From a bacterium (GTDB lineage Bacteria > Patescibacteriota > Microgenomatia > Daviesbacterales > UBA10151), in assembly GCA_021786105.1 (NCBI GenBank), contig JAJYNW010000005.1:52537-116536 (forward strand): a DNA stretch of 64,000 nucleotides, read 5' to 3'. The notes under the pieces are model-generated. The model saw only the letters and a list, made by a program, of their open reading frames with translations, was not told the DNA's origin and searched no databases. Made by a program: the position numbers and the translations under genes. Below are positions 934 through 25,303 of this stretch, in pieces (within the stretch, counting starts at the first letter, position 1; every line of letters starts with the position of its first letter).

Positions 934-937
934 ATTC

Positions 938-2846: not shown

Positions 2847-2847
2847 G

Positions 2848-4356: not shown

Positions 4357-4380
4357 AGTTGTGTATAATAAAAGTTAAGA

Positions 4381-5127
4381 ATGAGTAATCCCAAATTATC
4401 AGTTATTATTCCCGCTTATAATGCTGCAGAAGACTTAAAACGGGGAATATTAGATGATGTGGCCAAATACCTAGCGAAGCAGGGTTACCCCTCCGAAGTG
4501 TTAATTGTCAATGACGGTTCATCTGACCAAACCGCAGAAATTGTTAAGAAAAATATCGCTGATAAGAAAAGTTTCCGGTTGATCGATAATCCACATAAAG
4601 GAAAAGCGGTGACGGTAATGACCGGGCTTTTAGAAAGCTGTGGGGAGATTGCGGTTTTTACCGATGTTGACCAGTCCACTCCGCTTCCTGAAATTGAGAA
4701 ATTTTTTCCTAAATTTGAGCAAGGGTTTGATATTGTAATTGGTTCCAGATCAGGAAGGTCAGGATCTCCTTTTATTCGGAAGATTGCAACTTTGGGATTT
4801 TCAATCTTAAGAACAGTTATTTTAGGTTTGAATATCTCCGATACCCAATGTGGGTTTAAAGCTTTTGACAGAAAAGCTATAGAACAAATTTTCCCTCCAC
4901 TGCTTAAAAAATACCAAGAGGTAAATGTTTCGGGGCGGGCTTTAAATGCTGATTTTGATGCGGGATTTTTGTTTTTAGCCGGAAAGAAAGGCTTAAAAAT
5001 TGCCGAAGTTAAAGTTGATTGGCATGATGAAAATCCGGAATCCGCTAATCTGGTTAAAAACGCTATTGATACTATCAAAGGGATGATCAGAATTCGGGTT
5101 AGTGATTTCCGGGGAGAGTATGCTTAA
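4381..5127 (+). CDS. GT2 polyprenyl-phosphate sugar synthase (DPM1/GtrB-like)
   Basis: LSVIIPAYNAAEDL, VLIVNDGSSDQT and DVDQSTP (DxD-like) motifs; paralog of 2151..2846. Confidence 0.8.
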   Translation: MSNPKLSVIIPAYNAAEDLKRGILDDVAKYLAKQGYPSEVLIVNDGSSDQTAEIVKKNIADKKSFRLIDNPHKGKAVTVMTGLLESCGEIAVFTDVDQSTPLPEIEKFFPKFEQGFDIVIGSRSGRSGSPFIRKIATLGFSILRTVILGLNISDTQCGFKAFDRKAIEQIFPPLLKKYQEVNVSGRALNADFDAGFLFLAGKKGLKIAEVKVDWHDENPESANLVKNAIDTIKGMIRIRVSDFRGEYA

Positions 5128-10034: not shown

Positions 10035-10041
10035 ACTATAA

Positions 10042-10203
10042 CCGCTTTGCCAGAACAGTGCATTTAAATTCTGAGTAAATTTGGCAAAGATAAGCGGAGC
10101 TTGCGACCTTCGGTCTAATGGTTTCAAACTTCCGCAGTTTAATGCTAGCAAAGCGGATGTAAACTTGAAAGGAGAAAATGCAGACTTTCGGTCTGCGGAA
10201 GTT
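10042..10203 (+). promoter_or_regulatory. structured intergenic leader with nested and mutually exclusive inverted repeats upstream of or around the Wzx start
   Basis: CCGCTTTGCCAG (10042..10053) pairs with TTGGCAAAG..GCGG (10081..10097). GACCTTCGGTC hairpin at 10105..10115. AACTTCCGCAG (10127..10137) is perfectly complementary to CTGCGGAAGTT (10193..10203), enclosing AAAGGAG and ATG 10178. Confidence 0.4.
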
Positions 10204-11698
10204 TATGGAAGACATTAATGCGGATGAGCACTTGGATGCTACAGGTGAAATTACAATCGAAACGGTTAAAAAAAGAGCAGTTGGCGGAATAGCTGCTTTA
10301 ACCGGGAGAACAATATTTTTTCAGGGTGTAACCCTTATCGCCACTTTCTTTCTGACTGTTTTTTTAAATCCCGGCCAGTATGGTGTGTTTTATATTGTTT
10401 CGGCGGTAGTAGGATTTTTTGCCAAATTTGATATGGGTTTGGCTGCAGCGTTAGTCCAAAAGAAGGATCACCCTGCACCGCAAGACTTAAAAACTGCATT
10501 TACGATCCAAAACTCGATAGTGCTCACTTTTGTTATCCTTATTTTTCTGACTACTCCTTTTATCTCTAGTTGGCAGCACCTAAACCAAGAAAGCACTTAT
10601 TTGCTTTGGGCTTTAGCTTTGGGGTTATTAATAGCATCTTTAAAAAGTATTCCCTCAACTCTTTTAGAAAGAGAATTGAATTTCAGCAGATATGTTATTC
10701 CTCAAATGGTGGAACAGTTATTGTTCTATACAGTGGCAGTATTTCTGGCTTGGCGGGGTTTAGGGGTAACCAGCTACACCGTTGCTGTATTGGTAAGCGG
10801 AGTATCGGGACTAATCTTGATTTATATTTTGCGTCCCTGGAAACCCGGGATTGCTTGGGATGGAAAATCTTTTAGGAATTTGCTTCGTTATGGGATACCT
10901 TACCAATTTAATACCATTTTGGCTTCAATTAAGGATGATGGCATGACTCTGGTATTGGGTGGAATCTTAGGGTCAGCGAATTACGGCTTGTTAGTTTGGG
11001 CCAAAAAGTGGGCTGAAGCTCCCCTCCGGTTCTTTATGGACCAGGTCATTAAGGTGACATTTCCAGCCTATTCCCGGATGCAAGACAACCAGGAAGAGCT
11101 TTCAAAAGCTGTAACAAAATCCTTGTTATTCATTTGTCTTTTGGTTTTTCCGGCGTTGGCTGGATTAGTCATCCTGGCTCCTTCTTTAGTTAATCTAATT
11201 CCCCGATATGGGAAGTGGGAACCTGCATTATTTGCCCTGGCGCTAATTTCCATAAACTCAGCTTGGGCAGCAATAACTACTCCTTTAACTAATGTGCTGA
11301 TGGCTATCGGGAAAATAAAAACTACTTCCCGCTTGATGGTCATGTGGACAGTACTTACTTGGGTACTTTTCCCGCTGCTTGCTTATCTTTACGGAATAAA
11401 CGGGGTAGCGTGGGGTTATGTTGTGGTAGGATGCAGCTCGCTGGTTGCTGTTCTGGTTGCTTTGAAATCTGTTAAAGTTGATATCCTCTCATGTATTGGT
11501 AAGCCTTTGTTTTCAACCCTAATTTTTGCTTTAGCTTTATTAGCCGGCCGTCAACTATTGCCCTTATCTTGGATCAGCTTTTTCTCTATTTTAATGTTCG
11601 GGTTATTAATATACCTGTTTTTTACCTTCCTGCTTTTGGGGCCGACTCTGAGCAAAGATGCTAAAAAATTAGCTTTAGGAATTAGGGGGAGGATCTAG
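10178..11698 (+). CDS. Wzx/PST-family (MOP superfamily) oligosaccharide flippase
   Basis: About 12-14 TM helices and an LNPGQYGVF motif near TM1 typical of polysaccharide-biosynthesis (PST) proteins. The alternative in-frame start ATG 10205 is favoured by the conserved upstream palindrome (see findings). Confidence 0.7.
   Translation: MQTFGLRKFMEDINADEHLDATGEITIETVKKRAVGGIAALTGRTIFFQGVTLIATFFLTVFLNPGQYGVFYIVSAVVGFFAKFDMGLAAALVQKKDHPAPQDLKTAFTIQNSIVLTFVILIFLTTPFISSWQHLNQESTYLLWALALGLLIASLKSIPSTLLERELNFSRYVIPQMVEQLLFYTVAVFLAWRGLGVTSYTVAVLVSGVSGLILIYILRPWKPGIAWDGKSFRNLLRYGIPYQFNTILASIKDDGMTLVLGGILGSANYGLLVWAKKWAEAPLRFFMDQVIKVTFPAYSRMQDNQEELSKAVTKSLLFICLLVFPALAGLVILAPSLVNLIPRYGKWEPALFALALISINSAWAAITTPLTNVLMAIGKIKTTSRLMVMWTVLTWVLFPLLAYLYGINGVAWGYVVVGCSSLVAVLVALKSVKVDILSCIGKPLFSTLIFALALLAGRQLLPLSWISFFSILMFGLLIYLFFTFLLLGPTLSKDAKKLALGIRGRI
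10181..10195. promoter_or_regulatory. 15-bp palindrome CAGACTTTCGGTCTG, 9 nt upstream of in-frame ATG 10205 of the Wzx gene
   Basis: Perfect 5+5 inverted repeat. Near-identical copy at 15170..15184 with identical spacing to a start codon; core GACCTTCGGTC also at 10105..10115. Confidence 0.45.
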
Positions 11699-14600
11699 GT
11701 GCTTAAAAGATTATTCCTTGTATTAAGTATATTCTTTTTAGTATTGTCCTTTTTATTTGTCCCTAAAAAGGTACAAGCTGCAGATAACTCCTTTGTAAAT
11801 ATAGTTAATCCTGTGAGGGGAGCAGATTTTTGGGATTTAAAAGGCCAAAAACCGGTAGATAGTGTTTTAGGGGAAGCCGAAATCCTAAAACAAGCAAACT
11901 TGCCTGCTACGTGGCTCATCCGCTTTGATGCCTTAAATGACAATCAAGTTACAGATGTTATTAAAAATTTACCCCAAAATCATGAAATTGGTTTGTTTTT
12001 AGAGGTCACTCCTACTTGGACTAAGGCAGCAAATGTAAATTATAAATCTTCAGGCAGTTGGCATGGAGCAGGGAGTGCATTTTTGACCGGTTATGAACCT
12101 TCTGAGAGAGAAAAATTAATAGATAGTGCCTTTGATAATTTCAAAAGAATTTACGGTTACTATCCCAAGTCTATTGGTGCCTGGTATATCGATAGTTACT
12201 CCTTAAGTTACATGCAGAAAAAATATGGAATTGTGGGGGCATTAATTGTTGCCGATCAACACAGTACCGATAGCTATCAAATCTGGGGACAATTTTGGTC
12301 AACCCCTTATTATCCTTCCTCAAAAAATACCCTGATACCGGCCCAAAATTCTGAAGATAAATTACCTGTAGTCATTACCCAATGGGCGGCGCGTGACCCT
12401 CTAAACGGATATGGCAAAGGGGTAGAGGAGAGTACCTACAGTGTTCAGCCAAATGATTATATTGATTACCATAATTTGGGCACTAACTACTTTTCTAATC
12501 TCTTAGATATCTACACTTCCCAAAATTTGAATCAATTTAACCAAATTGTAGTTGGATTGGAGAACACTTACTCCTGGAAAAAGTATCAATCTGAATATCA
12601 AAATCAAATAAACATTATCTCTGCAAAGAATAAATCAGGGCAGTTTGGGGTGAATACTATGAAAGATTTCGCGGGCTGGTACATGAATAAATTTACCGGT
12701 GTTTCCCCGACTCAAGTGGTAGTGGCTAAGGATCCGCTCGGAACGGATAAATTTGCAGTATGGTTTATGAATCCATTCTATCGGGCTGGATGGGTTTATA
12801 ACCAGGATGGAAGTTTATTCCGTGATGTAAGGCCTTATACCGAGGGGAGGGATGAACAGTGTTACTCAGTTTCCTGTGACAAACTGGAGTTTGCCACTTT
12901 TGCGCTTTGGACGATTGATGAAATTACCAGAAATCAAAAGTTTGTTTTGGATCCGGGTAAAGTTAAAGACATTGAGTTAGCTAAAGATGGTCAAAACTAT
13001 TTGCTCAAGTACTCTAATGAAGCAGGAAGAACACGGGAGGTGACTTTTATGCCCCGCGATATTGGGGTTGATGGAAAAGTTAAATCAATAGATGCCTTTA
13101 TCTTGGATGCGACTTCCGGCAGCCAAGGAGGGCAAACTACAAAGGAAAAATATCCCGAAAGCAATATCAAAGTACCGGCTCCCAATATTCCTCTGTTTTT
13201 GGGATCAATTTTGAAATTTGTGCTATTTTTGATATTCGCTTTATTTATTCCGGGGTTTGTGCTTTTGGGAAGGACCAAAGAATTACATATTTTAAACAGG
13301 GCTTTTCTTTCAATTTGTATAGGAATTGTCGGGATTACTGTTCTTTCGTATTTAACAGGGTACCTAAAGATAGGGTGGATAGCTTATCTCTATATAGCTG
13401 TGTTTTTGTTGATTTTTATATCGCGGAGATTTCACCATGATCTTAAAATAGACAAATCAGAAATTAGGTTCTCAAAGGTATCAGCTGCCATTCTTTTGGT
13501 AATTGTAGCAGGTACTATTTTCCAGTCTTTAGCCATGATCCGATCTGGTTGGCCTTACAGCTTTGGTTTAGGTTTTTGGGGACCAATCGGGCACGACGGC
13601 ATTTGGCATCAGGCATTAATTAACCAATTACTACAAAATGTTCCGCCTCAGAACCCCGGTTTTGCGGGTAATACTCTTTCTAACTATCATTACTTTTATG
13701 ACCTCCTTGTTGCCGTTACGGCGGCATTAACTCAAATACCAGTTCTGGATTTGTTGTACAGGTTTTATCCGGTGCTCTTATCGTTGCTGCTGGGAGCGGG
13801 GACTTATTTTTTGGTGATGAAATTGTCAAAGAGTAAAATTGCCGCTTTGTTGTCCTTATATTTTGTTTATTTTGCAGGCAGTTTTGGATGGATGGTAGAG
13901 TTTATTAAACAAAGGCACTTTGGTGGTGAATCATCTTTTTGGGCGAACCAACCGGTTTCTGCAAACCTGAATCCCCCCTTTGCAATCTCTTTGGTTTTGC
14001 TGGTTGCTTTAATGGTACTTGTTTCTTACATAAGAGAACGTAACCTCAGACTAGGTTTTTTGGTGGCGCTAACTGCCGGGTCATTAATTGAGTTTAAAGT
14101 GTATGCCGGTGTTATTGTTTTGGGAGGGCTATTTGCCACTGCGCTCTTGCAGTTTTTACAAAAAAGAGATTTATCGGCAATGAAAATGTTTTTTGGGGCA
14201 TTGGTGTTATCGCTGGTAGTTTTTCTGCCCCAAAACAGTAAGTCGGGTGAGCTTTTAGTGTTTTCTCCTTTTTGGTTTGTGAATTCAATGATTAATTTCC
14301 CCGATAGGGTAGGTTGGGAAAGACTGGCTTTAGCTCTTCAAGTGGCTCCCTTAAGGGGGGAATGGCTTAAGTTCTTTGTGGTAGAAGGGATAGCTTTGTT
14401 AATTTTTATAGTTGGAAACTTGGGGACCAGATTTTTGGCACTGTTTTCTTTGCCTGTATTTTTTAAGAGGAGATTATGGGAAATGCCCGAGTATCTTTTA
14501 ATTATTTTTATGTCCGCTCTGGCTTTTTTAATTCCGGTATTTTTTATTCAAAAGGGTAATCCCTGGAATACGATCCAATTTTTCTATTATTTCATTTACT

Positions 14601-15163
14601 TTGTGGCTATTTTTACGGGGGATGCCTTAATAGCTATAAGGAAACATCTGCCAAAATATTTAAGTTTTGTTCTTTTGGGAATTTTGCTAATAATTACTCC
14701 CATTAATGCTTTTGTGACGTTTACCAGCTATCTTTCCTCGTCTTCTCCCTCAAGGCTTACCGGCGGAGAGTATGCAGGACTTAGCTTTTTGCACAAACTT
14801 CCCGATGGTGTTGTATTGACTTATCCTTTTGATAAGAATGAGCGTTCTAAATTTAACGACCCGTTCCCCTTGCTAATTTATGATACAAGCAACTATGTTT
14901 CTGCTTTTTCAGGAAAACCAGTGTTTGTGGAAGATGAAATTCAGCAGGAAATTTTGCAAAATGATTACCAAAAGAGATTAGTAGAGGCCTCCGATTTCTT
15001 TAATGGAAGGGATCCCAAATGGTCTGCTAATTTCTTAAAGCAAAACAATATTAAATATATTTATCTTCCGAAGATATTCTCTGTTTCACTTGATGAAGAA
15101 TCGCTTAATTTAAAAAAGGTTTATGATAATGAAGAGGTGGATGTTTATGTTCGTCAGAACTAA
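11699..15163 (+). CDS. large fusion protein: signal peptide + ~500 aa extracytoplasmic domain + C-terminal polytopic HGHDG-x-WH GT-C-like membrane module
   Basis: GTG start directly after the upstream stop, with GGGGGAGGA 7 nt upstream. N-terminus MLKRLFLVLSIFFLVLSFLFVPKKVQA/AD is a classic signal peptide. Residues ~520-1154 are clearly homologous to the whole of 18570..20543 (shared HDG[IM]WH, NPxFAG, FAGSFG, GGES-FWA blocks). Confidence 0.5.
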   Translation: MLKRLFLVLSIFFLVLSFLFVPKKVQAADNSFVNIVNPVRGADFWDLKGQKPVDSVLGEAEILKQANLPATWLIRFDALNDNQVTDVIKNLPQNHEIGLFLEVTPTWTKAANVNYKSSGSWHGAGSAFLTGYEPSEREKLIDSAFDNFKRIYGYYPKSIGAWYIDSYSLSYMQKKYGIVGALIVADQHSTDSYQIWGQFWSTPYYPSSKNTLIPAQNSEDKLPVVITQWAARDPLNGYGKGVEESTYSVQPNDYIDYHNLGTNYFSNLLDIYTSQNLNQFNQIVVGLENTYSWKKYQSEYQNQINIISAKNKSGQFGVNTMKDFAGWYMNKFTGVSPTQVVVAKDPLGTDKFAVWFMNPFYRAGWVYNQDGSLFRDVRPYTEGRDEQCYSVSCDKLEFATFALWTIDEITRNQKFVLDPGKVKDIELAKDGQNYLLKYSNEAGRTREVTFMPRDIGVDGKVKSIDAFILDATSGSQGGQTTKEKYPESNIKVPAPNIPLFLGSILKFVLFLIFALFIPGFVLLGRTKELHILNRAFLSICIGIVGITVLSYLTGYLKIGWIAYLYIAVFLLIFISRRFHHDLKIDKSEIRFSKVSAAILLVIVAGTIFQSLAMIRSGWPYSFGLGFWGPIGHDGIWHQALINQLLQNVPPQNPGFAGNTLSNYHYFYDLLVAVTAALTQIPVLDLLYRFYPVLLSLLLGAGTYFLVMKLSKSKIAALLSLYFVYFAGSFGWMVEFIKQRHFGGESSFWANQPVSANLNPPFAISLVLLVALMVLVSYIRERNLRLGFLVALTAGSLIEFKVYAGVIVLGGLFATALLQFLQKRDLSAMKMFFGALVLSLVVFLPQNSKSGELLVFSPFWFVNSMINFPDRVGWERLALALQVAPLRGEWLKFFVVEGIALLIFIVGNLGTRFLALFSLPVFFKRRLWEMPEYLLIIFMSALAFLIPVFFIQKGNPWNTIQFFYYFIYFVAIFTGDALIAIRKHLPKYLSFVLLGILLIITPINAFVTFTSYLSSSSPSRLTGGEYAGLSFLHKLPDGVVLTYPFDKNERSKFNDPFPLLIYDTSNYVSAFSGKPVFVEDEIQQEILQNDYQKRLVEASDFFNGRDPKWSANFLKQNNIKYIYLPKIFSVSLDEESLNLKKVYDNEEVDVYVRQN

Positions 15164-15169
15164 AACAAA

Positions 15170-15184
15170 CAGACCGAAGGTCTG
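15170..15184. promoter_or_regulatory. 15-bp palindrome CAGACCGAAGGTCTG, 9 nt upstream of ATG 15194 (ArnT-like gene)
   Basis: Same palindrome as at 10181..10195 (one central mismatch) followed by YGNAAGTTT then ATG in both cases. Confidence 0.45.
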
Positions 15185-15193
15185 TGCAAGTTT

Positions 15194-16705
15194 ATGAAAC
15201 TCAGATTTAAAAATTATATCCCAATTATTCTTATTATCCTCCTGGCAATATTTTTGCGGTTTGTAAACATCAATTCTAATCCTCCTTCTATGTATGGAGA
15301 TGAACTTACCTTAGTCTATGATGCTTATTCAATCCTAAAGACAGGACATGACCAAACCGGAGCTTTTCTGCCCTTAACATTTGCCATGAGTGAAGGTAGG
15401 CCACCTGCTTATGTCTACCTAACTGTACCATTGGTGGCGGCATTTGGTCCTACGGCGTTTGCTGCAAGATTTTTCTCTCTGGTCTCGGGCGTAGGAATTG
15501 TTCTTTTACTCTATCTTATACTTAAATCGTTAGTTTCTGAACGGGTTGCAACAATTGGAGCTCTATTTGCGGCAATTTCTCCTTGGGATTTATCACTTTC
15601 CCGGGGTGGATTCGAAACCCATCTGGCTCTGTTCTTGTCGCTTTTGGGAGTATATGCAGCTGTTCGTGCCAAGGTCCGTCCTTGGTATTTATTGATTTCT
15701 GGGATCTCATTTGGTTTGGCAATCTTCACATATCACTCATATAAAGTTGTGGTTCCGGCGTTTTTACCATTCTTGTTGTGGTTTATTGATTTAAAACAAC
15801 TAATTAAAGATAAAAAATTTCGAAAGAGTTTCATTATCGGGGCGACTGCATTTTTGTTTTTTGTTTCATTCTGGTTATATCAGGTAATTGGAGGATCGGA
15901 AATCCGTTTTCAAAATACCAGTCTCTTAAGCAATGCTAAACTCTCATCTACTATAACCGAAAAGGTTAATACCGAGAGAACTTTAGATAACTCACCTTTT
16001 AAAGTTATCATTCACAATAGACCAGTGGAGTATTTAACAACTTTAGGGGATAACTATTTTTCTCATTTTTCTTTTGATTTTCTTTTTTTGCATGGAGACG
16101 GAAATCCTCGGCATAACCAGGGGTTAATGGGGGAAATGTATATTGCTGATTCATTGTTGGTATTGCTGGGAATAATTTTTCTTTGGCAAAAATACAAGAA
16201 AGTTGCGCTCCTTTTGGGAGGTTGGATGATAGTTTCGCCCTTAGCTACGATGGTAGTTTCTCCAGCTCATGCTTTAAGAAGCACATTCCTTCTACCACCG
16301 CTTTTAATCTTATCTGCAACAGGTTTTACATATCTTCTGGAATTATCGCGTGATAAATGGGTAGCAAAATTAGTGTTTTTTGCAGTGGTACTTGGCATAA
16401 TAACCCAATTCATTTTTCTTGTAGATAGAGTTTATTACTTATACCCCAAGCAGTTTGGAAATTTTTGGAGTCTGTCTGCAAAAACCGCATCCGAAGATGC
16501 ATTGGCTGAAAGCAAAAAATATGATTATGTCGTTTTATCTGACCAAATTGATAGCATCAATTTAGCTTTTCCTGTTTATGTAAAAGTTGACCCAAATCAA
16601 GTTATTTCCCAGTATAATCAAAACGTTAGAAATTTTGGTAATATTTATATTGGCAAGGTATCCAATTTGCCGGGTAATGTTTTATACATAAAAAATAATC
16701 AATGA
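15194..16705 (+). CDS. GT-C-fold membrane glycosyltransferase, ArnT/PMT_2-like
   Basis: YGDELTLVYDAYS loop (DE motif) and multi-TM core. Paralogous to the 32270/33919/35423 triplet. Confidence 0.7.
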   Translation: MKLRFKNYIPIILIILLAIFLRFVNINSNPPSMYGDELTLVYDAYSILKTGHDQTGAFLPLTFAMSEGRPPAYVYLTVPLVAAFGPTAFAARFFSLVSGVGIVLLLYLILKSLVSERVATIGALFAAISPWDLSLSRGGFETHLALFLSLLGVYAAVRAKVRPWYLLISGISFGLAIFTYHSYKVVVPAFLPFLLWFIDLKQLIKDKKFRKSFIIGATAFLFFVSFWLYQVIGGSEIRFQNTSLLSNAKLSSTITEKVNTERTLDNSPFKVIIHNRPVEYLTTLGDNYFSHFSFDFLFLHGDGNPRHNQGLMGEMYIADSLLVLLGIIFLWQKYKKVALLLGGWMIVSPLATMVVSPAHALRSTFLLPPLLILSATGFTYLLELSRDKWVAKLVFFAVVLGIITQFIFLVDRVYYLYPKQFGNFWSLSAKTASEDALAESKKYDYVVLSDQIDSINLAFPVYVKVDPNQVISQYNQNVRNFGNIYIGKVSNLPGNVLYIKNNQ

Positions 16706-17937
16706 TATCACCTAAATTGCAAAAGATTTTAATAATGGGAATTTTGTTGAGGCTTTTAATAATGCCTTTTTATTTTCACCCCGATATCAAAACTTATAAC
16801 TTTCAATCTTCATTTTTAAAAAATGGTGTCGTAAATATTTATTCATATCTTACAGATCATAAACAAGATTTACCTCTGAAAGAGGAATTTGTCTATTTCC
16901 CGTTAACTTATTTCTTTTTGGGAGGTTACCAAATATTAGCATCTCCGTTTTTGGGGCCGGGATTTCACCAGTGGCTTTTTGATGCTTCCCAATCTGCAAC
17001 TCAACGGCCTGATGTTTTTAGGTACCTTTTTATTTTAAAACTTCCTTACCTTCTTTTGGACATCGCCATAGGCTTTTTGCTAATGAAATTTTTTGAAAAG
17101 GACGAGGACAAGAAAAGGGTATTCACCATCTGGATGTTTAATCCTCTTTCCCTAGTTTTAATTTATGCTTTCTCGAACTTGGACATTATTGTTGTATTTT
17201 TGACTGTCCTGAGTTTATTACTGGCCCAAAAACAAAAACCCATATCTGCAGCTCTTGCGCTTGGAATTGGGGCAGGATTTAAGGCCTATCCGTTATTGTT
17301 TGCCCCATTCCTAATGCTCACAGTTAAAGATTGGAAACAAAGATTGGGAATTTTACTGGTCTCCGTTTTGCCCTTTATCCTGACAATTGCTCCGTTCTTA
17401 AGATCTACAAGTTTTAAAGAGGCAACTTTAACTTCTGGACTTATGACTAGACTTACTTTAATGGGAATGAATTTAGGTTTTAACGAAACATTGCTTGTCG
17501 GTGTAGCGGCACTCTCTGTATTATTTTTCTGGGGTTTTTCAGAGATGCAAATTTCCAAAGATAAACTTTGGCAATATTATCTGGCGCTTTTATTGTTACT
17601 TTTGTCTGTAATCCATTTTCATGTCCAGTGGATTTTATGGATGATGCCGTTTGCGGCCTTACTTTTTGTAAGATCTAAAAAACTAATCTTGCCTATGGCC
17701 TTACTTCTTTTAACGGCATTTTTTATTCCCTTGCTTTATGAGGACAAAGCTATGACCGTGGGGCTCTTTTCTGTCATTAACCCTACATATAATTTATTGC
17801 CAATTCCTTTTGCTATTGTTCAAAAGTTTTATGATCCCTATGTTATCCAGAGTATCTTGCATAGTATTTTTGCGGGGGGGAGTTTAGTGGTTGCTTGGAA
17901 AATACTGAGAAGTAGAAATGTAGATATCGATGAATAG
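16702..17937 (+). CDS. polytopic GT-C-like membrane protein (DUF2029/GT87-like)
   Basis: About 10 TM helices and a GAGFKAYPLLFAPF motif (K-x-x-P ... P-L-F) shared with 22102..23457 and the central module of 43995..47114. Confidence 0.45.
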   Translation: MISPKLQKILIMGILLRLLIMPFYFHPDIKTYNFQSSFLKNGVVNIYSYLTDHKQDLPLKEEFVYFPLTYFFLGGYQILASPFLGPGFHQWLFDASQSATQRPDVFRYLFILKLPYLLLDIAIGFLLMKFFEKDEDKKRVFTIWMFNPLSLVLIYAFSNLDIIVVFLTVLSLLLAQKQKPISAALALGIGAGFKAYPLLFAPFLMLTVKDWKQRLGILLVSVLPFILTIAPFLRSTSFKEATLTSGLMTRLTLMGMNLGFNETLLVGVAALSVLFFWGFSEMQISKDKLWQYYLALLLLLLSVIHFHVQWILWMMPFAALLFVRSKKLILPMALLLLTAFFIPLLYEDKAMTVGLFSVINPTYNLLPIPFAIVQKFYDPYVIQSILHSIFAGGSLVVAWKILRSRNVDIDE

Positions 17938-18562
17938 ATTATTTTGGATCTTGTTAATTTTGGTTATTTCAGCCCCGGCCATTTTAAGTTTGGGTATCAG
18001 ATTGGTTCCGAATAGTTTCCAGCCTTCTTTGGACGGTACCCAAAAAGTTTATGGAGAAGTAAAAGTTTCTTCCGATATCTCAAGTAGCTCTAATAATTTA
18101 TCCGGAATTGGTCTAAGCATTAAAAATCCAAACTTGATTAATAAAAAAGACATTAATCTTTCGGTATTTTCCAACGGAAATCTTTTGAGAAGCGTGACTT
18201 TAAACGGCAGGTCTATTGGTGACGGAAATTTTATAAAATTTATTTTTGATCCGATAGACGACTCCAAAGGAAAAGTATATAACATGGTTTTTTCGGCACC
18301 GGGAGTTGCTGATGGGGAAGCATTGGAGATTTTTCTTACCAGTAATCCGGATGGATCAGGGATTAAAGTGGGTAAGGATGTCCATACCGAAGGTTTATCG
18401 GACGTGGTTTTCTATCACCCAAGTAACCCCCTCTCATTAGCTACAATAATATATGAGGAACTGATAGGAAGACTGGCAAAAGATATGATGTTTTTTGCTT
18501 TTTATATTATTATCCTTGGAGGATTAGGAGCATACTTATTTACGCTATCCAAAAAATCCTAG
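17930..18562 (+). CDS. bitopic membrane protein with Ser/Asn/Gly-rich ectodomain, unknown function
   Basis: N-terminal signal anchor, ~150 aa hydrophilic S/N/G-rich domain, C-terminal TM; translationally coupled to the upstream GT-C gene. Confidence 0.35.
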   Translation: MNRLFWILLILVISAPAILSLGIRLVPNSFQPSLDGTQKVYGEVKVSSDISSSSNNLSGIGLSIKNPNLINKKDINLSVFSNGNLLRSVTLNGRSIGDGNFIKFIFDPIDDSKGKVYNMVFSAPGVADGEALEIFLTSNPDGSGIKVGKDVHTEGLSDVVFYHPSNPLSLATIIYEELIGRLAKDMMFFAFYIIILGGLGAYLFTLSKKS

Positions 18563-18569
18563 AGCTTTG

Positions 18570-20543
18570 TTAGTTGGTTTTCCAAATTTGGATTGATGGA
18601 TTCGAATAAACTTCTTGCAAATCGGTTTTTGTAAGATCAATAGCTGGTTGTAACTGAATTGGAAAATAAAGATAGCTAATTTTATTATCTCTCAATATTT
18701 TGTCAAAATTTATAGGGTCAGTTTCCTCAAACAGTTGCTTCTCAATATCTAAGCGATCATTAAACTTATATCCCATGATATCAACTTGTTCTGTGTCGGA
18801 AAGGAAGGTTCTGCGGGAAGAGAGCGCAGAAACATAGGCAGTATCAAACCAGGCCCAGATGGGAGGAGTAGAGGTATGAAGATCAAGGTATTTGTTATAA
18901 GGAGGAGTGACAACCACACTGTTTTCGGAGGTATTCTTTCGTAAAAATGTTAAAGCTGATTGTTCAGGAGAATCAATTTTTGCATAAGGTGGACGTGAGT
19001 AAAATCCATAAATTAATCCTACTTGGGTGGGAACTGCCAAAAGTATGATTAAAAATCCCAATGCGATTTGAATAGAGGACTTGAATTTAAGGGTAAATTT
19101 TCCCCAAGCAATTCCGGCGATGATTCCCATTAAAAGCAAGAAGTATTGCATGAATTGGATGGAGTTACTGGCTACGCCTTTTTGTAGAAAAAGCATCGGT
19201 AAAATAAATGATGAAAGCAAGATAAGAATCAAAAGTAAATGCAGATAATTTTTAAATATGGAGGTAACATATTTGGCAACATCAACAAGCCCGATAAACC
19301 TGAGCCCTAAATTCCCAAACAAAAAGATAAAAAAAGAAGTTCCTTCGAGTTGGGCAACTCTCTTTAGGTTGTGTTCTGCAAGATAGGTTTGCCTTCTCAA
19401 TTCCCAATCCAATAAGTTAAGCCTTCCGGGTATTACAACCATGGTTCGAATATACCACCATGGTTCCCAGATCAAAAACCCGACAGATCCTGTAGAGTTG
19501 GGTAGATATAAAATTGCCGAGAGTAAGCCACTTAAGGTGGTGAGTATTAAAATATGAACCCTTCTTTCTTTTAGGAGCTGCCACCCCCCCACAATACCAA
19601 GGCTTCCTAACAAGACTATTCCTCCATAGACTTTGAAGACGATGAGTGATCCGGCGATCATTGCTAATACTAAAAGTTTTAGCGTGCCTTTTTGATTTTC
19701 CAAAAAATGAATAAAGAAAAAGAGGAAAGTTAAAACTATAATAAAGGCAGCGATTTGAGGGGGATTCCCAATTGAGCTTTGAATTTGGGTGGCCCAGAAG
19801 ATGGACTCGCCTCCGATGGTCCTGCTTTGGATCCAGGTAACTATAAATCCAAAACTGCCGGCAAAATATGTAAAAATTGTTGCCCAAACCCCGGTCGAAA
19901 AACTTCCCCCGATCTTTTTCCCTAAAAAGTAAGCCAGGGATCCAAGGAGCAAAGAATAAATAAAAGGAAAGAAACGGAAGTAGAGGTCTAAATTAGAAAA
20001 ACGGAAATATTGGCTAAAGATTGTAGGGGCAATATCAGAAAAGAAATGGTAGTTAACTAACCTTTCTCCGGCAAATACTGGATTTTGTAAAGGAAATCCT
20101 TTTTTCATTTCTTCCATTAAACTGATATGCCACATTCCGTCATGGCCGTGCGCACTCCAAAAAACTAGATCTCCATTTACAAATCTACCACTCGGAGCAA
20201 TGACTAATAATTGTCCAATAATACCCAAAGCAAATAATAATGAAAGTAAAAGTTTTCGATTAGTTGAGGGTAGTGTCAAATGAGAAAATATATCTCGAAG
20301 CTCTTTTAGCCCGAGAATATCCAATAGTATTGCAAACGGAACAGCCAAAAAATTTAACTTTAGCACTATTCCTAAATAGGAAAGAAGTGTGAAGAATATC
20401 AACCCGGCAACCGTTCCAAAGAATAAGCTTTCCCAAGGGCTAATTTTGAAACTTGCCTTTTTAAGTAGAAATACCCCCGGAAGCGTAAAACAAAAAAAAG
20501 ACACTAAAACAAAGAGAGGAAATACAAAAAGCATATTACCCAT
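18570..20543 (-). CDS. polytopic membrane protein of an unrecognised GT-C-like family (HGHDG-x-WH motif)
   Basis: About 14 TM helices. Motifs SAHGHDGMWH, QNPVFAGERLVNYHFF, FAGSFGF and GGESIFWATQ match the C-terminal module of 11699..15163. Confidence 0.5.
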   Translation of the reverse strand: MGNMLFVFPLFVLVSFFCFTLPGVFLLKKASFKISPWESLFFGTVAGLIFFTLLSYLGIVLKLNFLAVPFAILLDILGLKELRDIFSHLTLPSTNRKLLLSLLFALGIIGQLLVIAPSGRFVNGDLVFWSAHGHDGMWHISLMEEMKKGFPLQNPVFAGERLVNYHFFSDIAPTIFSQYFRFSNLDLYFRFFPFIYSLLLGSLAYFLGKKIGGSFSTGVWATIFTYFAGSFGFIVTWIQSRTIGGESIFWATQIQSSIGNPPQIAAFIIVLTFLFFFIHFLENQKGTLKLLVLAMIAGSLIVFKVYGGIVLLGSLGIVGGWQLLKERRVHILILTTLSGLLSAILYLPNSTGSVGFLIWEPWWYIRTMVVIPGRLNLLDWELRRQTYLAEHNLKRVAQLEGTSFFIFLFGNLGLRFIGLVDVAKYVTSIFKNYLHLLLILILLSSFILPMLFLQKGVASNSIQFMQYFLLLMGIIAGIAWGKFTLKFKSSIQIALGFLIILLAVPTQVGLIYGFYSRPPYAKIDSPEQSALTFLRKNTSENSVVVTPPYNKYLDLHTSTPPIWAWFDTAYVSALSSRRTFLSDTEQVDIMGYKFNDRLDIEKQLFEETDPINFDKILRDNKISYLYFPIQLQPAIDLTKTDLQEVYSNPSIQIWKTN

Positions 20544-20587
20544 ATTCCAATTTTACATCATTGGTACTTTATATATAATGGGAATAT

Positions 20588-22102
20588 ATGAAAAGATGGT
20601 GGTTTCCACTGCTGGTATTAATTCTGCTAGTTGCTGTCCTAAAGTATACCGCAAACCTTCGCGCTCTTGGTTATGATAAAGTTCCCGATACTTACCCTAT
20701 TTTAGATGAGCGGACAAATGTTTGGCATGGGTTAAGTTTAAGGCAGAGCGGGATTCCGGCGGCGTGGTCGGGGTTAGGCGCTTATAAGAGGAATAATGCA
20801 GGCGGCAAAATAAATGGTTTTAATATTCAGGTGGATGACTTTACTCCTAATTTAAATAATTTCAGCCAGTTTCCTAAACCGAGCGCCATTTTACATGGAG
20901 TAGATTTGGGTTTAGGCCGGGGGATGACGGGTATTTTAATGGTCCAGCCTTATTTAGACCATCCTCCGTTAGCGGCGCTTATTTTCAGCTCTTTTGTGCC
21001 TAACAGCTTGAGAACTTTCGATGACCTGACTCCTTTTGACATGCGAAAAGGACCACTGGTATTGGCAGCTATTACAGGGTTTTTAATTTTTCTGCTTGGT
21101 TTCCAGCTGTTTAAAAATGTCTGGATTGGGCTTTTGGCAACAGCTATTTACGGGACCGCACCGACTTTTGTTCTTTTAAGCAGGTACACTCTTTTAGAAA
21201 ATGCCATGGTGCCCTTGATGCTAATTTCCTTAAATTTGCTTCTTTTTTCCCAGCAAGTAAAAAACAGGAAGAAGGTTGCCTTAACTGTTGGGTTAGCGGG
21301 AGTTTTTGGTGGGTTAACAGCCCTAACTAAAATTACCGGCTGGGCGATTCTGCCTATAGGAGTAATCCTTCTTTGGCAGTGGAAGTACCATCTGCGGGAG
21401 ATTTTATACTTTGCTTTCCCGGTTATTGTTTTAGGACTTTCGTATTTTGCCTGGGGGTTTTATTTGGCGCCGAATGTCTTTATAGATATCTTCCGCTATC
21501 AGGGAATAGATCGGGGATTTATTGGCTCAATTAATTTTTTGGTGACTATGACACGGGTGGGGATTGTTAATTTTCCTGTAGATGGGTGGTGGATTGGAGG
21601 GTTTTTAACCATGGGGTTGATTCTTTTAAAAAAAGAAAGCTTCCCCTATATAGTGAGCGTAGTTACACTATTGTTTACGGCACTGCTTTTAGGAGGAGCA
21701 AACTACCCTTGGTATTTTATCCCGCTGGTTCCTTTTATGTGTCTTGGGATAGCCTATTTAATTTGGCAGATAGTTACTTCGCCATCCCTCTTTAATCTAA
21801 TGGCTTTTTTCTTGCTGTTTTTTTCCAGTAGTTTTTATTGGGGATATGGTGTTTACCAAGCGGCATTGTCACCTACCGGTGACCAGCAGCCTTTTACCCT
21901 TTACAGGATTTTATTCCTGCTTTTCTTTGGGATAGGATTAATGTGGCCCCGTCTTGTAAAGTTAAATAAAGTTGCCAAGGCTTGGCCGGTGGTGGTGTTT
22001 TGTTTAATACTGATTACACTTAAATTGAATGAAAGGTCACTTTATTTTTTAATGTCTAATTGGGGGCATCTCCCGGCAATTTTTACGCCGGGGACATTTT
22101 AA
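20588..22102 (+). CDS. GT-C-fold membrane glycosyltransferase, ArnT/PMT-like
   Basis: Signal-anchor TM, then loop LDERTNVWHG (DE motif) and more than 10 TM helices. Confidence 0.55.
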   Translation: MKRWWFPLLVLILLVAVLKYTANLRALGYDKVPDTYPILDERTNVWHGLSLRQSGIPAAWSGLGAYKRNNAGGKINGFNIQVDDFTPNLNNFSQFPKPSAILHGVDLGLGRGMTGILMVQPYLDHPPLAALIFSSFVPNSLRTFDDLTPFDMRKGPLVLAAITGFLIFLLGFQLFKNVWIGLLATAIYGTAPTFVLLSRYTLLENAMVPLMLISLNLLLFSQQVKNRKKVALTVGLAGVFGGLTALTKITGWAILPIGVILLWQWKYHLREILYFAFPVIVLGLSYFAWGFYLAPNVFIDIFRYQGIDRGFIGSINFLVTMTRVGIVNFPVDGWWIGGFLTMGLILLKKESFPYIVSVVTLLFTALLLGGANYPWYFIPLVPFMCLGIAYLIWQIVTSPSLFNLMAFFLLFFSSSFYWGYGVYQAALSPTGDQQPFTLYRILFLLFFGIGLMWPRLVKLNKVAKAWPVVVFCLILITLKLNERSLYFLMSNWGHLPAIFTPGTF

Positions 22103-23457
22103 TGATGAACAAAATAATTAGATTTTGCCGGAATAAAGATGTTTTAATAGTTTTCCTATCTGCCTTAATTCTTCGTTTGGCAATTAGCAGTTTGGGTTTT
22201 CATGATGATATTTATAGCAATACGGCCTGGGGGAAATGGATCTTTCAAAATGGGCCAAGAGGATTTTATGAGGCAAGCGGTTGGATTTACTCTTCGCCCA
22301 CCCAACCTCCCCTTATAAGCTTGCTCTATGGGTTTAACCACTTTCTTTATGAAAGGCTAATGTTTTTCTTTTCTACTTTGGGGGTTTGGATAGCGACCTA
22401 TCATCTGGCCCCCACAAAAATGATGTGGTTTTTTGATTTTTCTAGGTGGTTTGGTAATGCAATGTATCAAGAAACACCATTTAAGTTTGGGGCATTAATT
22501 TCCATGAAAATAGTGGCGATTTTAGCTGATTTGGCGATTGCCTGGATTATATATTTGCTTGCTAAAAATCATACCTCTAAACCAATTCTTTGGAGCGTTG
22601 CTTATCTTTTTTCTCCCTTTAGTTGGTATTTAAGCGCTTTATGGGGACAGTATGACCAGACAAGTTTCCTCTTTTTGCTTTTGGCGTTTGTTTTGCTTGC
22701 CAGAAAGCATCTTTTGTGGACACCGTTGCTTTTATTGATAAGTATTGAATTAAAGCCTACAGCACTTATCTTTATTCCTTTATTCGCTTGGTTTTACTTG
22801 AAACAAAAACCATCTGTAAAAGATATAGTGGTGGGATTTTTGTCGGTGGCTGTTGTTTTTGTATACTCAGTTTGGCTATTTGCGGATAGGAATGTCGTTG
22901 ACTTTACTCAAAATGAGCTGCTTCCAAAAATCTTTGCTAAATCTGAACCCCGCGTATCAACCAATGCGTTTAATTTTTGGCGGATCTTTATCGGGAATGC
23001 TGCCATGAATCAGGATACGGTACTTTTCCTGTTACCGACAAAAATTTGGGGATATCTGATATTTTTCTCCGCATATATTTTATCGGTTGTTCATTTTAAA
23101 AAAATAACTATTGAAAATATTTTTAAATTGTTTTTCATCGTTGGAGGAACCGGATTTTTGTTTCTAACCAATATGTTGGATCGGTATTTTTTTGCTGGAG
23201 TGGTAGGACTTTTAATTGTTACGATTTTCAACAAAAGCTTATTTAAATTTTGGCTAATTTTAAGTTTAGTATTTTGGCTGAATCTATTTAATCAATGGTG
23301 GTTTCCGGAAAATCTGGGATTTTTACGGGAAGTATTAACTTGGCAAAACTTTATAGTAAGCAGGGTGTTGGCGGCAGTTAATGTCTCTATCTTTATTATT
23401 GTTTTATTTAAAATCTTCCCTAGCTTAAATTGGAAAAGCTTCACTTTTAGAAAGTAA
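22102..23457 (+). CDS. polytopic GT-C-like membrane protein (DUF2029/GT87-like)
   Basis: Track ORF starts at 22060 inside the upstream gene; start refined to the taATGATG at 22102/22105. ELKPTALIFIPLFAWFY motif; about 11 TM helices. Confidence 0.45.
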   Translation: MMNKIIRFCRNKDVLIVFLSALILRLAISSLGFHDDIYSNTAWGKWIFQNGPRGFYEASGWIYSSPTQPPLISLLYGFNHFLYERLMFFFSTLGVWIATYHLAPTKMMWFFDFSRWFGNAMYQETPFKFGALISMKIVAILADLAIAWIIYLLAKNHTSKPILWSVAYLFSPFSWYLSALWGQYDQTSFLFLLLAFVLLARKHLLWTPLLLLISIELKPTALIFIPLFAWFYLKQKPSVKDIVVGFLSVAVVFVYSVWLFADRNVVDFTQNELLPKIFAKSEPRVSTNAFNFWRIFIGNAAMNQDTVLFLLPTKIWGYLIFFSAYILSVVHFKKITIENIFKLFFIVGGTGFLFLTNMLDRYFFAGVVGLLIVTIFNKSLFKFWLILSLVFWLNLFNQWWFPENLGFLREVLTWQNFIVSRVLAAVNVSIFIIVLFKIFPSLNWKSFTFRK

Positions 23458-23474
23458 GTTGGTAATATGGGAAT

Positions 23475-25247: not shown

Positions 25248-25303
25248 CGAGTTTGCATACCATCAAGTTTACTTGTGCCTCTGAAATTGTTAACATTTAC
25301 TGT

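What the first reader, a model, noticed from the sequence alone, without database searches (positions are those of the whole stretch)
11699..20543. Unrecognised polytopic family with HGHDG-x-WH / NPxFAG / FAGSFG / GGES-FWA blocks, once fused to a ~500 aa secreted ectodomain
The 657 aa protein at 18570..20543 (-) and the C-terminal ~630 aa of the 1154 aa protein at 11699..15163 are clearly homologous over their whole length (for example SAHGHDGMWH vs PIGHDGIWH; QNPVFAGERLVNYHFF vs QNPGFAGNTLSNYHYF; YFAGSFGFIV vs YFAGSFGWMV). The C-terminal soluble tails are shared too. I cannot place the family among the GT-C groups recognised elsewhere in this window. The larger gene adds a signal-peptide-led ~500 aa extracytoplasmic domain (cleavage predicted VQA/AD) of unknown fold, possibly carbohydrate-active, giving a one-polypeptide ectodomain-plus-transferase architecture. 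Conserved His/Asp residues in the first extracytoplasmic loop suggest a metal-dependent GT-C-like active site.
Basis: seen in the sequence. Interest (0 to 1): 0.7.

Follow-up and report, generated by a model that had tools for sequence, protein, structure and literature searches.

The report
Unannotated OST-like membrane glycosyltransferase family
Two paralogous genes in a giant sugar-polymer gene island of a Microgenomates (candidate phyla radiation) bacterium belong to a large protein family with no database annotation, whose predicted fold is that of membrane glycosyltransferases closest to the enzymes that attach glycans to proteins; one copy also carries an outward-facing hydrolase/deacetylase-like domain.

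Summary
The proteins at 11699..15163(+) (A, 1154 aa) and 18570..20543(-) (B, 657 aa) are paralogues: 31% identity over 654 aa, E 2e-78. Neither membrane part matches any Pfam, NCBIfam or PDB sequence.

The invariant Asp of the HGHDG block (D135 in B) sits at the N-terminal tip of the first extracytoplasmic helix, where GT-C_A enzymes carry their catalytic Asp.

Three N-terminal helices are an accessory module. They turn the N-terminus outward, which allows the ectodomain fusion. The OST WWDYG motif is not conserved, so this is not a GT66 member.

The fusion is common, with at least 120 clusters at 90% identity. It always follows a Wzx-type flippase gene.

The family has about 2000 clusters at 50% identity. 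All named sources are Microgenomates or Patescibacteria.

Donor and acceptor are unknown.

The parts
11699..15163 (+). Gene A (1154 aa). Order of parts: signal peptide, DUF3863-like ectodomain, 3 accessory TM helices, GT-C core, OST-like C-terminal domain.
11699..11779 (+). Predicted signal peptide or N-terminal anchor of A (aa 1-27, ...VQA/AD).
   Evidence: Hydrophobic segment. Helix 2-20, then pLDDT below 50 at residues 21-28. GTG start preceded by the Shine-Dalgarno-like AGGGGGAGG. No signal-peptide predictor was available, so cleavage is inferred.
11780..12703 (+). (β/α)7 barrel of the ectodomain (aa 28-335), DUF3863 / GH57-CE4 superfamily. Invariant residues: E102, W121, W162, D165, D186, Q187, D191, R232, D233, Q250, D253, E288.
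   Evidence: - Profile against 3lm3, E 1.7e-6.
- Single sequence against 3lm3, E 0.003.
- Seven strands in the model.
- Invariant residues.
12704..13117 (+). β-sandwich domain of the ectodomain (aa 336-473). Includes the invariant Cys pair C388/C393.
   Evidence: All-β segment 339-463 in the model. Invariant cysteines. The 3lm3 alignment extends into this part (second stretch).
13187..13444 (+). Accessory N-terminal TM helices of A (aa 497-582). They link the outside ectodomain to the inside start of the GT-C core.
   Evidence: Helices 497-523, 531-555 and 561-582. The homologous region is absent from core-only family members and is replaced by one helix in P0417.
13475..14734 (+). GT-C core of A (aa 593-1012, 11 TM helices plus extracytoplasmic loops).
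13589..13609 (+). GHDGIWH block of A (aa 631-637) with the predicted catalytic Asp D633.
   Evidence: It sits in the first turns of helix 628-646, directly after the core's first TM helix 593-615. The Asp is conserved in 119 of 119 representatives.
14738..15160 (+). C-terminal extracytoplasmic α/β domain of A (aa 1014-1154), OST-CTD-like.
   Evidence: Matches the tail profile at E 1e-48. The profile hits the AglB-S2 C-terminal domain 3vu0 at E 0.005.
18570..20543 (-). Gene B (657 aa): 3 accessory TM helices, GT-C core and OST-like C-terminal domain, with no ectodomain.
20283..20543 (-). Accessory TM helices of B (aa 1-87).
   Evidence: Helices 2-29, 36-60 and 64-87. Profile positions 1-92 are missing in the short family members.
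18999..20264 (-). GT-C core of B (aa 94-515).
20127..20150 (-). HGHDGMWH block of B (aa 132-139) with the predicted catalytic Asp D135.
   Evidence: It lies at the N-terminal tip of helix 131-147 after TM helix 94-115. D135 is conserved in 119 of 119 and H139 in 117 of 119. It falls in the extracytoplasmic loop by the positive-inside count.
18573..18995 (-). C-terminal extracytoplasmic domain of B (aa 517-657). Contains 563-WAWFDTAY-570.
10178..11698 (+). Wzx/MOP-type flippase gene (Polysacc_synt_3). It lies immediately upstream of A in the same reading frame, separated only by a TAG codon.
   Evidence: - Pfam E 1e-51.
- Junction sequence.
- Same adjacency in L001, L004, L005 and L006.
- In-frame fused version P0324, 1639 aa.

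Best explanation
A and B are paralogous, catalytically competent members of a large, unannotated sequence family of GT-C-fold integral-membrane glycosyltransferases. Where the source organism is named, it is Microgenomates or Patescibacteria.

Shown here:
- Core: 11 TM helices. A long first extracytoplasmic loop carries two helices.
- Predicted active site: the invariant Asp of the HDG block (D135 in B, D633 in A) caps the first of these helices. This is the position of the essential catalytic Asp in GT-C_A enzymes.
- Other invariant polar residues: H139, Y165, H166, E246, N260, K304, Q454, N460 and Q463 lie on the outer face of the membrane. R415 lies within TM11, about two-thirds of the way toward the cytoplasmic end.
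- C-terminal domain: an outward-facing α/β domain with the fold of the AglB/STT3 C-terminal core.
- Accessory helices: three extra N-terminal TM helices put the N-terminus outside.
- Ectodomain of A: a secreted DUF3863-type (β/α)7 barrel plus a β-sandwich occupies this outside N-terminus.

Inferred mechanism:
- The enzymes take a polyprenyl-(pyro)phosphate-linked glycan on the outer leaflet. For A, this is supplied by the translationally coupled Wzx-type flippase.
- They transfer the glycan to an extracytoplasmic acceptor, which could be a cell-surface protein or a wall/surface polymer.
- D135 activates the acceptor.
- K304 and R415 hold the donor phosphate(s).
- The barrel domain of A binds or processes (hydrolyses, transglycosylates or de-acylates) the same glycan before or after transfer.
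- B performs a related transfer without that step.
For: - Paralogy: E 2e-78.
- Fold, Foldseek: the 21 best hits are OST (STT3, AglB, PglB) or DPY19 at E 2e-9 to 1.6e-7. AftA and ArnT come next at about 1e-4.
- Catalytic position: D135 lies at the N-terminal tip of helix 131-147 after TM 94-115. PMC12041299 states that all GT-C_A enzymes have an essential Asp at the tip of JM helix 1, and that the conserved module is TM1-7 plus JM1 and JM2.
- Purifying selection on the site: six residues are 100% conserved across 119 representatives at 50% identity.
- Topology: short inside loops have 14 K/R in 72 aa, outside loops 4 in 58. The secreted ectodomain fixes the N-terminus outside.
- Accessory helices: 34 of 119 representatives start directly at the core TM1. 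17 of 119 carry an N-terminal region of more than 300 residues joined to a core that lacks the three accessory helices; in the one inspected (P0417) this is the ectodomain joined by a single helix.
- Flippase coupling: the genes are adjacent in all four Microgenomates loci inspected (two distinct MAG lineages; L004-L006 carry the identical gene), share a frame here with a single TAG between them, and a fused 1639 aa protein exists elsewhere.
- Ectodomain-only relatives also follow a flippase gene.
- Context: a 64 kb glycan island with GT2 and GT4 genes, GtrA, at least 12 other GT-C genes and MBOAT/AlgX.
Against: - No biochemical or genetic data exist for any member.
- All structural evidence rests on AlphaFold models. 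Residue-level superposition on OST structures could not be done with these tools.
- The OST hallmark WWDYG is not conserved family-wide.
- No initiating phosphoglycosyltransferase and no obvious acceptor protein was found in the window.
- P0324 comes from a single short contig and could be a sequencing error.
- The interplay of ectodomain and GT-C core is inferred from fusion and synteny only.
Confidence: 0.7

Rival explanations
1. A and B are ordinary 'three-component system' GT-C enzymes. They add single sugars from polyprenyl-monophosphate-sugar donors onto an existing surface polymer, like the many PMT_2-type genes around them. The donors would be made by the neighbouring GT2 enzymes and flipped by GtrA-like proteins. 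In this reading the OST resemblance is only shared GT-C ancestry.
For: - The island encodes GtrA (82..684), many GT2 genes and many PMT_2 GT-C genes.
- Three-component systems are a common bacterial route (PMC11127046).
- AftA has the highest Foldseek TM-score, 0.53.
Against: - The C-terminal domain is specifically of OST type.
- A is coupled to a MOP/Wzx-type flippase, which typically moves oligosaccharide-PP-lipids, and not to GtrA.
Confidence: 0.3
2. A (and/or B) acts as the polymerase or ligase of a Wzx-dependent pathway. It would replace the missing Wzy/WaaL-type enzyme by joining flipped repeat units to each other or to a wall or lipid anchor, rather than glycosylating protein.
For: - The conserved cassette has a Wzx-type flippase but no convincing Wzy or WaaL family gene. 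The only trace is a weak Wzy_C hit, E 0.003, on a PMT_2 protein at 35423.
- The ectodomain resembles polysaccharide-modifying enzymes such as PelA, Agd3 and PgdA.
Against: - No GT-C enzyme is known to me to polymerise PP-linked repeat units (own knowledge).
Confidence: 0.2
3. The ectodomain of A is a metal-dependent CE4-type de-N-acetylase or deformylase acting on the lipid-linked sugar, as ArnD does before ArnT. It would not be a hydrolase, transglycosylase or binding module.
Against: - There is no HxxxH motif. Only one or two conserved His residues (H122, H258) are present.
- The invariant acidic residues follow strand β4 (W162-x-x-D165) and strand β7 (E288). These are the positions of the GH57 nucleophile and proton donor.
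Confidence: 0.25
4. The similarity is real but the proteins are inactive scaffolds or pseudoenzymes, or the A fusion is an assembly or gene-calling artefact.
For: Truncated, frameshifted A-type genes exist in other assemblies (P0121 and P0123 end in ...GGGSRLFGQTSRSHSI).
Against: - At least 120 independent clusters show the full-length fusion at 1116-1166 aa.
- The polar residues of the predicted active site are invariant.
- The ORF in the window is uninterrupted.
Confidence: 0.03

Closest known systems
Oligosaccharyltransferase catalytic subunits STT3 / AglB / PglB (CAZy GT66)
   Same: - The same order of polytopic GT-C domain followed by an extracytoplasmic C-terminal α/β domain.
- An Asp lies in EL1 and a second acidic residue (E246) in the next outer loop.
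   Different: - No sequence-level match of the membrane part.
- 11 core TM helices plus 3 accessory ones, against 13 in OSTs.
- N-terminus outside.
- A single HD rather than DxD in EL1.
- WWDYG is not conserved. Only the B subfamily has W-x-W-F-D-T; family-wide the motif is Y-x-(S/T/D)-T-A-Y.
- No DK/MI motif was identified.
- The acceptor is unknown.
Other GT-C_A enzymes (DPY19 C-mannosyltransferase, PMT1/2/4, ArnT, AftA/AftB/AftD, ALG6)
   Different: Lower scores than STT3B, different periplasmic domains, and no sequence similarity to the PMT_2, PTPS_related or YfhO genes of the same window.
DUF3863 (Pfam PF12979; PDB 3lm3, BDI_3119 of Parabacteroides distasonis, 'putative glycoside hydrolase/deacetylase')
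   Different: - All hits are below the Pfam gathering score (14-16 bits against 27).
- 3lm3 is a soluble stand-alone protein of unknown activity.
- Here the domain is secreted and tethered to a membrane glycosyltransferase, or to a TM plus the OST-like tail.
- W162 and D165 are not matched in the 3lm3 alignment.
GH57 α-glucan-active enzymes and CE4 polysaccharide deacetylases (the 7-stranded barrel superfamily), including ArnD
   Different: - No sequence-level hit.
- Asp and Glu are swapped relative to the GH57 Glu/Asp pair.
- The barrel is followed by a β-sandwich, not a four-helix bundle.
- No CE4 metal triad.

Membership tests
GT-C fold glycosyltransferases, class GT-C_A | Polytopic membrane domain whose first seven TM helices, plus two juxtamembrane helices between TM1 and TM2, form the conserved module. 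| tested here: met
   [not shown]
GT-C fold glycosyltransferases, class GT-C_A | Essential catalytic Asp/Glu at the tip of juxtamembrane helix 1, facing the extracytoplasmic side. | tested here: met
   D135 (B) and D633 (A) lie in the first turn of the first loop helix. The residue is conserved in 119 of 119 representatives. The loop is extracytoplasmic by the positive-inside count and by the N-terminal ectodomain. Catalytic essentiality itself was not tested.
GT-C fold glycosyltransferases, class GT-C_A | Use of a polyprenyl-phosphate-linked sugar donor. | not testable with these tools
   Context only: a Wzx-type flippase, GtrA and GT2 genes in the island.
Oligosaccharyltransferase STT3/AglB/PglB (GT66, Pfam STT3) | Significant sequence match to the STT3 family profile. 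| tested here: not met
   No Pfam hit at E ≤ 1 for A or B, nor at E ≤ 0.1 for 34 A-type relatives. No PDB OST sequence was hit by the full-length profile at E ≤ 10.
Oligosaccharyltransferase STT3/AglB/PglB (GT66, Pfam STT3) | WWDYG motif in the C-terminal domain (sequon +2 Ser/Thr recognition; own knowledge of OST literature). | tested here: not met
   B has 563-WAWFDTAY at the corresponding place between the β-strand and the helix. Across 119 representatives the columns read Y/W, E/T/D, S/T/D, T. An acidic residue is present at one of two positions in only about 67 of 119.
Oligosaccharyltransferase STT3/AglB/PglB (GT66, Pfam STT3) | C-terminal extracytoplasmic globular domain with the OST core fold. 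| tested here: met
   [not shown]
Oligosaccharyltransferase STT3/AglB/PglB (GT66, Pfam STT3) | DxD motifs in EL1 and EL2 and an acidic residue in EL5 that bind the divalent metal (own knowledge). | tested here: inconclusive
   EL1 has HD (D135). The next outer loop has E246 (Glu or Asp in 112 of 119). The long loop 350-392 has no invariant acidic residue: E360, D379 and E381 are variable family-wide. No structural superposition was possible.
Oligosaccharyltransferase STT3/AglB/PglB (GT66, Pfam STT3) | En bloc transfer of a lipid-PP-oligosaccharide to Asn of N-x-S/T. | not testable with these tools
   No biochemical data exist.
DUF3863 (PF12979) | Score above the Pfam gathering threshold (27 bits). 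| tested here: not met
   A scores 14.4-16.2 bits, E 0.005-0.017. Some relatives carry a precomputed PF12979 annotation.
DUF3863 (PF12979) | Same fold as the family's solved structure, 3lm3. | tested here: met
   [not shown]
CE4 (NodB) polysaccharide deacetylases | Asp-His-His metal triad with the H(S/T)xxH motif (own knowledge). | tested here: not met
   There is no HxxxH in aa 28-335. Only H122 is conserved at 90% or more across the wider ectodomain family, and H258 only in A-type proteins.
GH57 | (β/α)7 barrel with a Glu nucleophile at β4 (CSR-3, W-x-x-E) and an Asp proton donor at β7, followed by a four-helix bundle (PMC6037648). | tested here: inconclusive
   A seven-stranded barrel is present. 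W162-x-x-D165 follows β4 and E288 follows β7, so the positions fit but the residue types are swapped. The barrel is followed by a β-sandwich, not a helix bundle. There is no sequence-profile hit.
Wzy / O-antigen ligase (WaaL) / SEDS | Family profile match or shared fold. | tested here: not met
   [not shown]

The most novel reading that the evidence does not exclude
The family is a third, independently diverged lineage of oligosaccharyltransferase-like enzymes, confined to CPR bacteria. It would take the glycan flipped by the adjacent Wzx-type flippase and transfer it en bloc to surface proteins (S-layer, pilins) or to the wall, using acceptor recognition that does not involve WWDYG.

In the A-type proteins, flipping, glycan processing by the GH57/CE4-like barrel and transfer would be physically coupled. 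In at least one case they are coupled within one polypeptide (P0324).
Probability: 0.2. Interest if true: 0.8.

Novelty: new variant of a known kind. Interest (0 to 1): 0.58.

Why it matters
GT-C enzymes build the outer glycans of all domains of life. CPR bacteria such as Microgenomates devote very large islands to them, and almost none of those genes have an assigned role.

- **Scale of the gap.** The family has about 2000 clusters at 50% identity. Nearly every record seen is unnamed or 'hypothetical protein', and current profile libraries do not detect it. A profile built from it would annotate thousands of genes.
- **OST relationship.** Its nearest structural relatives are the oligosaccharyltransferases, including their C-terminal domain. 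This raises a testable question: do these episymbiotic bacteria carry out OST-like en bloc glycan transfer?
- **Architectures.** The family occurs as core only, +3 TM, ectodomain +1 TM or +3 TM, ectodomain +TM +tail, and flippase-fused. These give a natural dissection of which modules work together. They also show how an N-in GT-C can acquire an outside N-terminal domain by adding an odd number of helices.
- **DUF3863.** The family gives this domain of unknown function (PDB 3lm3) its first firm functional context, namely lipid-linked glycan assembly.

Tried and rejected
1. Sequence-profile placement failed. Pfam and NCBIfam gave nothing for the membrane part. The full-length family profile against all PDB sequences gave only noise: NADH-quinone oxidoreductase subunit 10 at E 0.31.
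2. hhalign of the family profile against the window's YfhO, PTPS_related and the unannotated 590 aa ORF gave probabilities of 2% or less. The family is therefore not a divergent copy of a neighbouring GT-C.
3. Wzy/WaaL/SEDS identity is rejected on fold.
4. An artefactual fusion is rejected by at least 120 full-length homologues.
5. I first assigned D186/D191 of the ectodomain to the GH57 proton-donor region from memory. I withdrew this after the model showed that β7 ends at residue 285, just before E288.
6. The HMMER local alignment to 3vu0 starts at the DYG of WWDYG and aligns it to B 576-578. By order of secondary structure, 565-WFD-567 is the more likely equivalent. This is unresolved without a superposition.
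7. Literature searches for this family, for DUF3863, or for OST-like enzymes in CPR found nothing relevant.
8. One UniRef name exists for an A-type protein, 'Glycosyltransferase RgtA/B/C/D-like domain-containing protein'. Current Pfam does not reproduce a PMT_2 hit.
9. No initiating phosphoglycosyltransferase or acceptor candidate was found among the window's scanned ORFs.

Full report
**1. Observation**

The window carries ORF A at 11699..15163(+), 1154 aa with a GTG start, and ORF B at 18570..20543(-), 657 aa. BLASTP aligns A 507-1150 with B 11-654 at 31% identity and 50% positives, E 2e-78. The C-terminal soluble tails are also homologous, with tblastn E 2e-11. No third copy exists in the window.

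**2. No sequence-level annotation**

- Pfam finds nothing for B. For A it finds only a sub-threshold DUF3863 hit in the N-terminal part (E 0.017). NCBIfam finds nothing.
- A profile of 31 family members finds no solved structure by sequence.
- None of 34 A-type relatives or 10 other architectural variants hits a GT-C Pfam family.
- Profile comparison with three other polytopic ORFs of the window (YfhO, a PTPS_related protein, and the unannotated 590 aa ORF) is negative.
- Database records seen for the family are unnamed or 'hypothetical/uncharacterized protein'. The one exception is a UniRef name, 'Glycosyltransferase RgtA/B/C/D-like domain-containing protein'.

**3. Size and spread of the family**

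An exhaustive HMMER search of 1.84 billion representatives at 50% identity finds 1970 proteins at E ≤ 1e-3 and 953 at E ≤ 1e-30. In one-genome-per-species contigs, 79 loci were recovered. Every informative title reads Daviesbacteria, Woesebacteria, Microgenomates, Patescibacteria or (once) Parcubacteria. Many third-party assemblies are titled 'uncultured Gammaproteobacteria', which I take to be placeholder labels.

**4. Fold of the membrane part**

AlphaFold2 on B with a 31-sequence alignment gives pLDDT 88.9 and pTM 0.91.

- Foldseek against the PDB: the 21 best hits are STT3, AglB, PglB or the C-mannosyltransferase DPY19, at E 2e-9 to 1.6e-7 and TM about 0.45-0.49. AftA and ArnT follow at about 1e-4.
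- The full-length A model (pLDDT 86.9) reproduces this: STT3B 21.2, ALG12 18.3, AglB 17.5.

The family is therefore GT-C, closest to the oligosaccharyltransferases. The margin over other GT-C_A enzymes is modest.

**5. Active site and topology**

In the B model, TM helix 94-115 is followed by a β-hairpin and two loop helices, 131-147 and 167-180. HGHDG occupies 132-136, so D135 caps the first loop helix. The AftB structure paper states that all GT-C_A enzymes carry an essential Asp at the tip of juxtamembrane helix 1. It defines the conserved module as TM1-7 plus JM1 and JM2 (PMC12041299).

Conservation across 119 full-length representatives:

| Residue (B numbering) | Conserved in |
|---|---|
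| D135, Y165, H166, K304, G410, Q463 | 119 |
| H139, N260, N411, Q454 | 117 |
| N460 | 113 |
| R415 | 110, plus 9 Lys |
| E246 | 104, plus 8 Asp |

Using the model's helices, short cytoplasmic loops hold 14 K/R in 72 residues and short outer loops hold 4 in 58. Apart from the TM11 residues G410, N411 and R415, every invariant polar residue lies on the outer side. In A, the secreted N-terminal domain independently fixes the N-terminus outside, which puts the HDG loop outside after four helices.

**6. Accessory helices**

The first three helices of B (2-87) are not part of the core.

- 34 of 119 representatives begin directly at the helix before the HDG loop. An example is P0400: MKWNLFFPAVVILAGTIFQS...GFWGPNTHDGVWH.
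- 17 carry a >300-residue N-terminal region on a core lacking the three accessory helices; P0417, the one inspected, joins the ectodomain to the core by a single helix.
- 54 are B-type and 10 are A-type.

An odd number of added helices converts the canonical N-in GT-C into an N-out protein. That is what makes an N-terminal ectodomain possible. This part is inference from architecture.

**7. C-terminal domain**

A profile of this domain built from B-type, A-type and ectodomain-only proteins hits 3vu0 at E 0.005 and 3vgp at E 0.17. The aligned stretch runs up to the strand ...YLYFP, which pairs with ...VRYVVTV.

The OST hallmark WWDYG is not conserved. B has 563-WAWFDTAY and A has LLIYDTSNY. Family-wide the columns read Y/W, E/T/D, S/T/D, T, A, Y. 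The family is therefore OST-like in architecture but fails membership of GT66 on both motif and sequence.

**8. Ectodomain of A**

The model shows seven β-strands alternating with helices (31-39, 71-75, 96-100, 158-161, 180-184, 225-229, 281-285), followed by an all-β domain at 339-463.

- Deacetylase-like proteins come next: HP0310 21.5, 3rxz 21.2, 1z7a 19.9.
- GH57 enzymes score 17-18.5 and ArnD 16.6. Many CE4 enzymes follow.
- Sequence supports the DUF3863 link: profile E 1.7e-6, single sequence E 0.003, and 10 of 23 relatives hit PF12979.

There is no CE4 HxxxH metal motif. The invariant W162-x-x-D165 follows β4 and the invariant E288 follows β7. These are the strands that carry the GH57 nucleophile (W-x-x-E) and proton donor (PMC6037648). 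I therefore lean to a glycosidase or transglycosylase-like or binding role over a metal deacetylase, but this is not settled. The invariant C388/C393 pair fits an extracytoplasmic location.

**9. The fusion and its relatives**

Full-length A-type proteins of 1116-1166 aa fill almost all of the 120 best clusters. The same ectodomain also occurs in proteins of about 675 aa, mainly from Woesebacteria. These consist of signal peptide, ectodomain, one or two TM helices and the same OST-like tail, without the GT-C core. The ectodomain and the tail therefore travel together, with or without the transferase between them.

**10. Genomic context**

The cassette is conserved in the Daviesbacteria and other Microgenomates genomes inspected:

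PTPS_related GT-C → Polysacc_synt (Wzx/MOP) flippase → A → PMT_2 GT-C → GT87/PIG-like GT-C → bitopic protein of about 215 aa → (convergent 3′ ends) B → (B start diverging from) further PMT/GT87-type GT-C genes → GT2 ×3 → GT4 → GT2.

In the window, the flippase gene ends with TAG at 11696-11698 and A starts with GTG at 11699 in the same frame. AGGGGGAGG lies just upstream. In another assembly the two are one 1639 aa protein, in which the signal peptide serves as an additional TM helix; this is topologically consistent. The ectodomain+tail genes of Woesebacteria also sit one gene downstream of a flippase.

The whole 64 kb window is a glycan island. It holds GtrA, at least 14 GT-C-type genes, two MOP flippases, many GT2 and GT4 genes, an MBOAT+AlgX pair, methyltransferases and an epimerase. 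No initiating phosphoglycosyltransferase or candidate acceptor was seen.

**11. Mechanism proposed**

- Shown: a GT-C fold, an outward-facing invariant Asp at the JM1 tip, an OST-type C-terminal domain, a DUF3863-type ectodomain, and conserved coupling to a Wzx-type flippase.
- Inferred: A receives the flipped polyprenyl-PP-linked glycan. The barrel domain binds or trims it. The GT-C core transfers it to an extracytoplasmic acceptor, with D135/D633 as the base and K304/R415 on the phosphates. B does a related transfer without the barrel.

**12. Verdict**

This is a real, large and essentially unannotated GT-C family with OST-like architecture and unusual N-terminal elaborations. It is a new variant of a known kind, not a new kind. 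Substrates are unknown. Interest is moderate to high for glycobiology and CPR biology.

Noticed in passing
window 10178..11701: The Wzx/MOP flippase gene and gene A lie in the same reading frame, separated only by a TAG codon, with AGGGGGAGG just upstream of the GTG start. A 1639 aa in-frame flippase+ectodomain+GT-C protein (P0324) exists on another contig.
   Followed up: partly
window 1..64000: The whole window is one glycan-assembly island. It holds GtrA (82..684), at least 14 GT-C-type genes (PMT/PMT_2, PTPS_related, GT87/PIG-M/PIG-V-like, YfhO), two MOP flippases (10178, 40091), about 14 GT2 and 5 GT4 genes, MBOAT+AlgX (47208, 48703), an LPG_synthase_TM protein, methyltransferases and an epimerase. 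No initiating phosphoglycosyltransferase was found.
   Followed up: partly
window 17930..18562 (+): A 210 aa protein with N- and C-terminal hydrophobic segments, a Ser/Asn-rich middle and no Pfam hit. A gene of 216-219 aa sits at the same place (between the GT87-like gene and B) in the syntenic cassettes of two other Microgenomates lineages (loci L001, L002, L004-L006).
   Followed up: no
window 23475..25247 (+): A 590 aa ORF inside the island with no Pfam family at E ≤ 0.01 and no similarity to the A/B family profile.
   Followed up: no
window 43995..47114 (-): A 1039 aa protein that is hydrophobic almost throughout, with only a weak GT87 hit at aa 510-644. It may be a tandem or extended GT-C.
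   Followed up: no
P0160, P0216; loci L007 8001-10025, L009 8001-10037: Woesebacteria proteins of about 675 aa combine the DUF3863-like ectodomain, one or two TM helices and the OST-like C-terminal tail without any GT-C core. The tail carries a CxxC in place of the W-x-W-F-D-T region. The genes follow flippase and GT2 genes.
   Followed up: partly
P0121, P0123 (other assemblies): A-type genes truncated at the GGES block (...HWGGGSRLFGQTSRSHSI). They look like frameshifts at a G-run, either sequencing errors or pseudogenes.
   Followed up: no
loci L011-L089: Many third-party MAG records that carry this Microgenomates-type gene are titled 'uncultured Gammaproteobacteria bacterium'. This is probably a placeholder or a mislabel.
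   Followed up: no
B aa 527-558 / A aa 1024-1045 (window 18870..18965 and 14768..14833): The start of the C-terminal domain (E-x-x-A-L-x-F-L ... V-x-L-T) gives weak hits to Pfam DUF6798 in 4 of 29 sequences, best E 3.5e-4. This hints that the tail module occurs in other unannotated membrane proteins.
   Followed up: no
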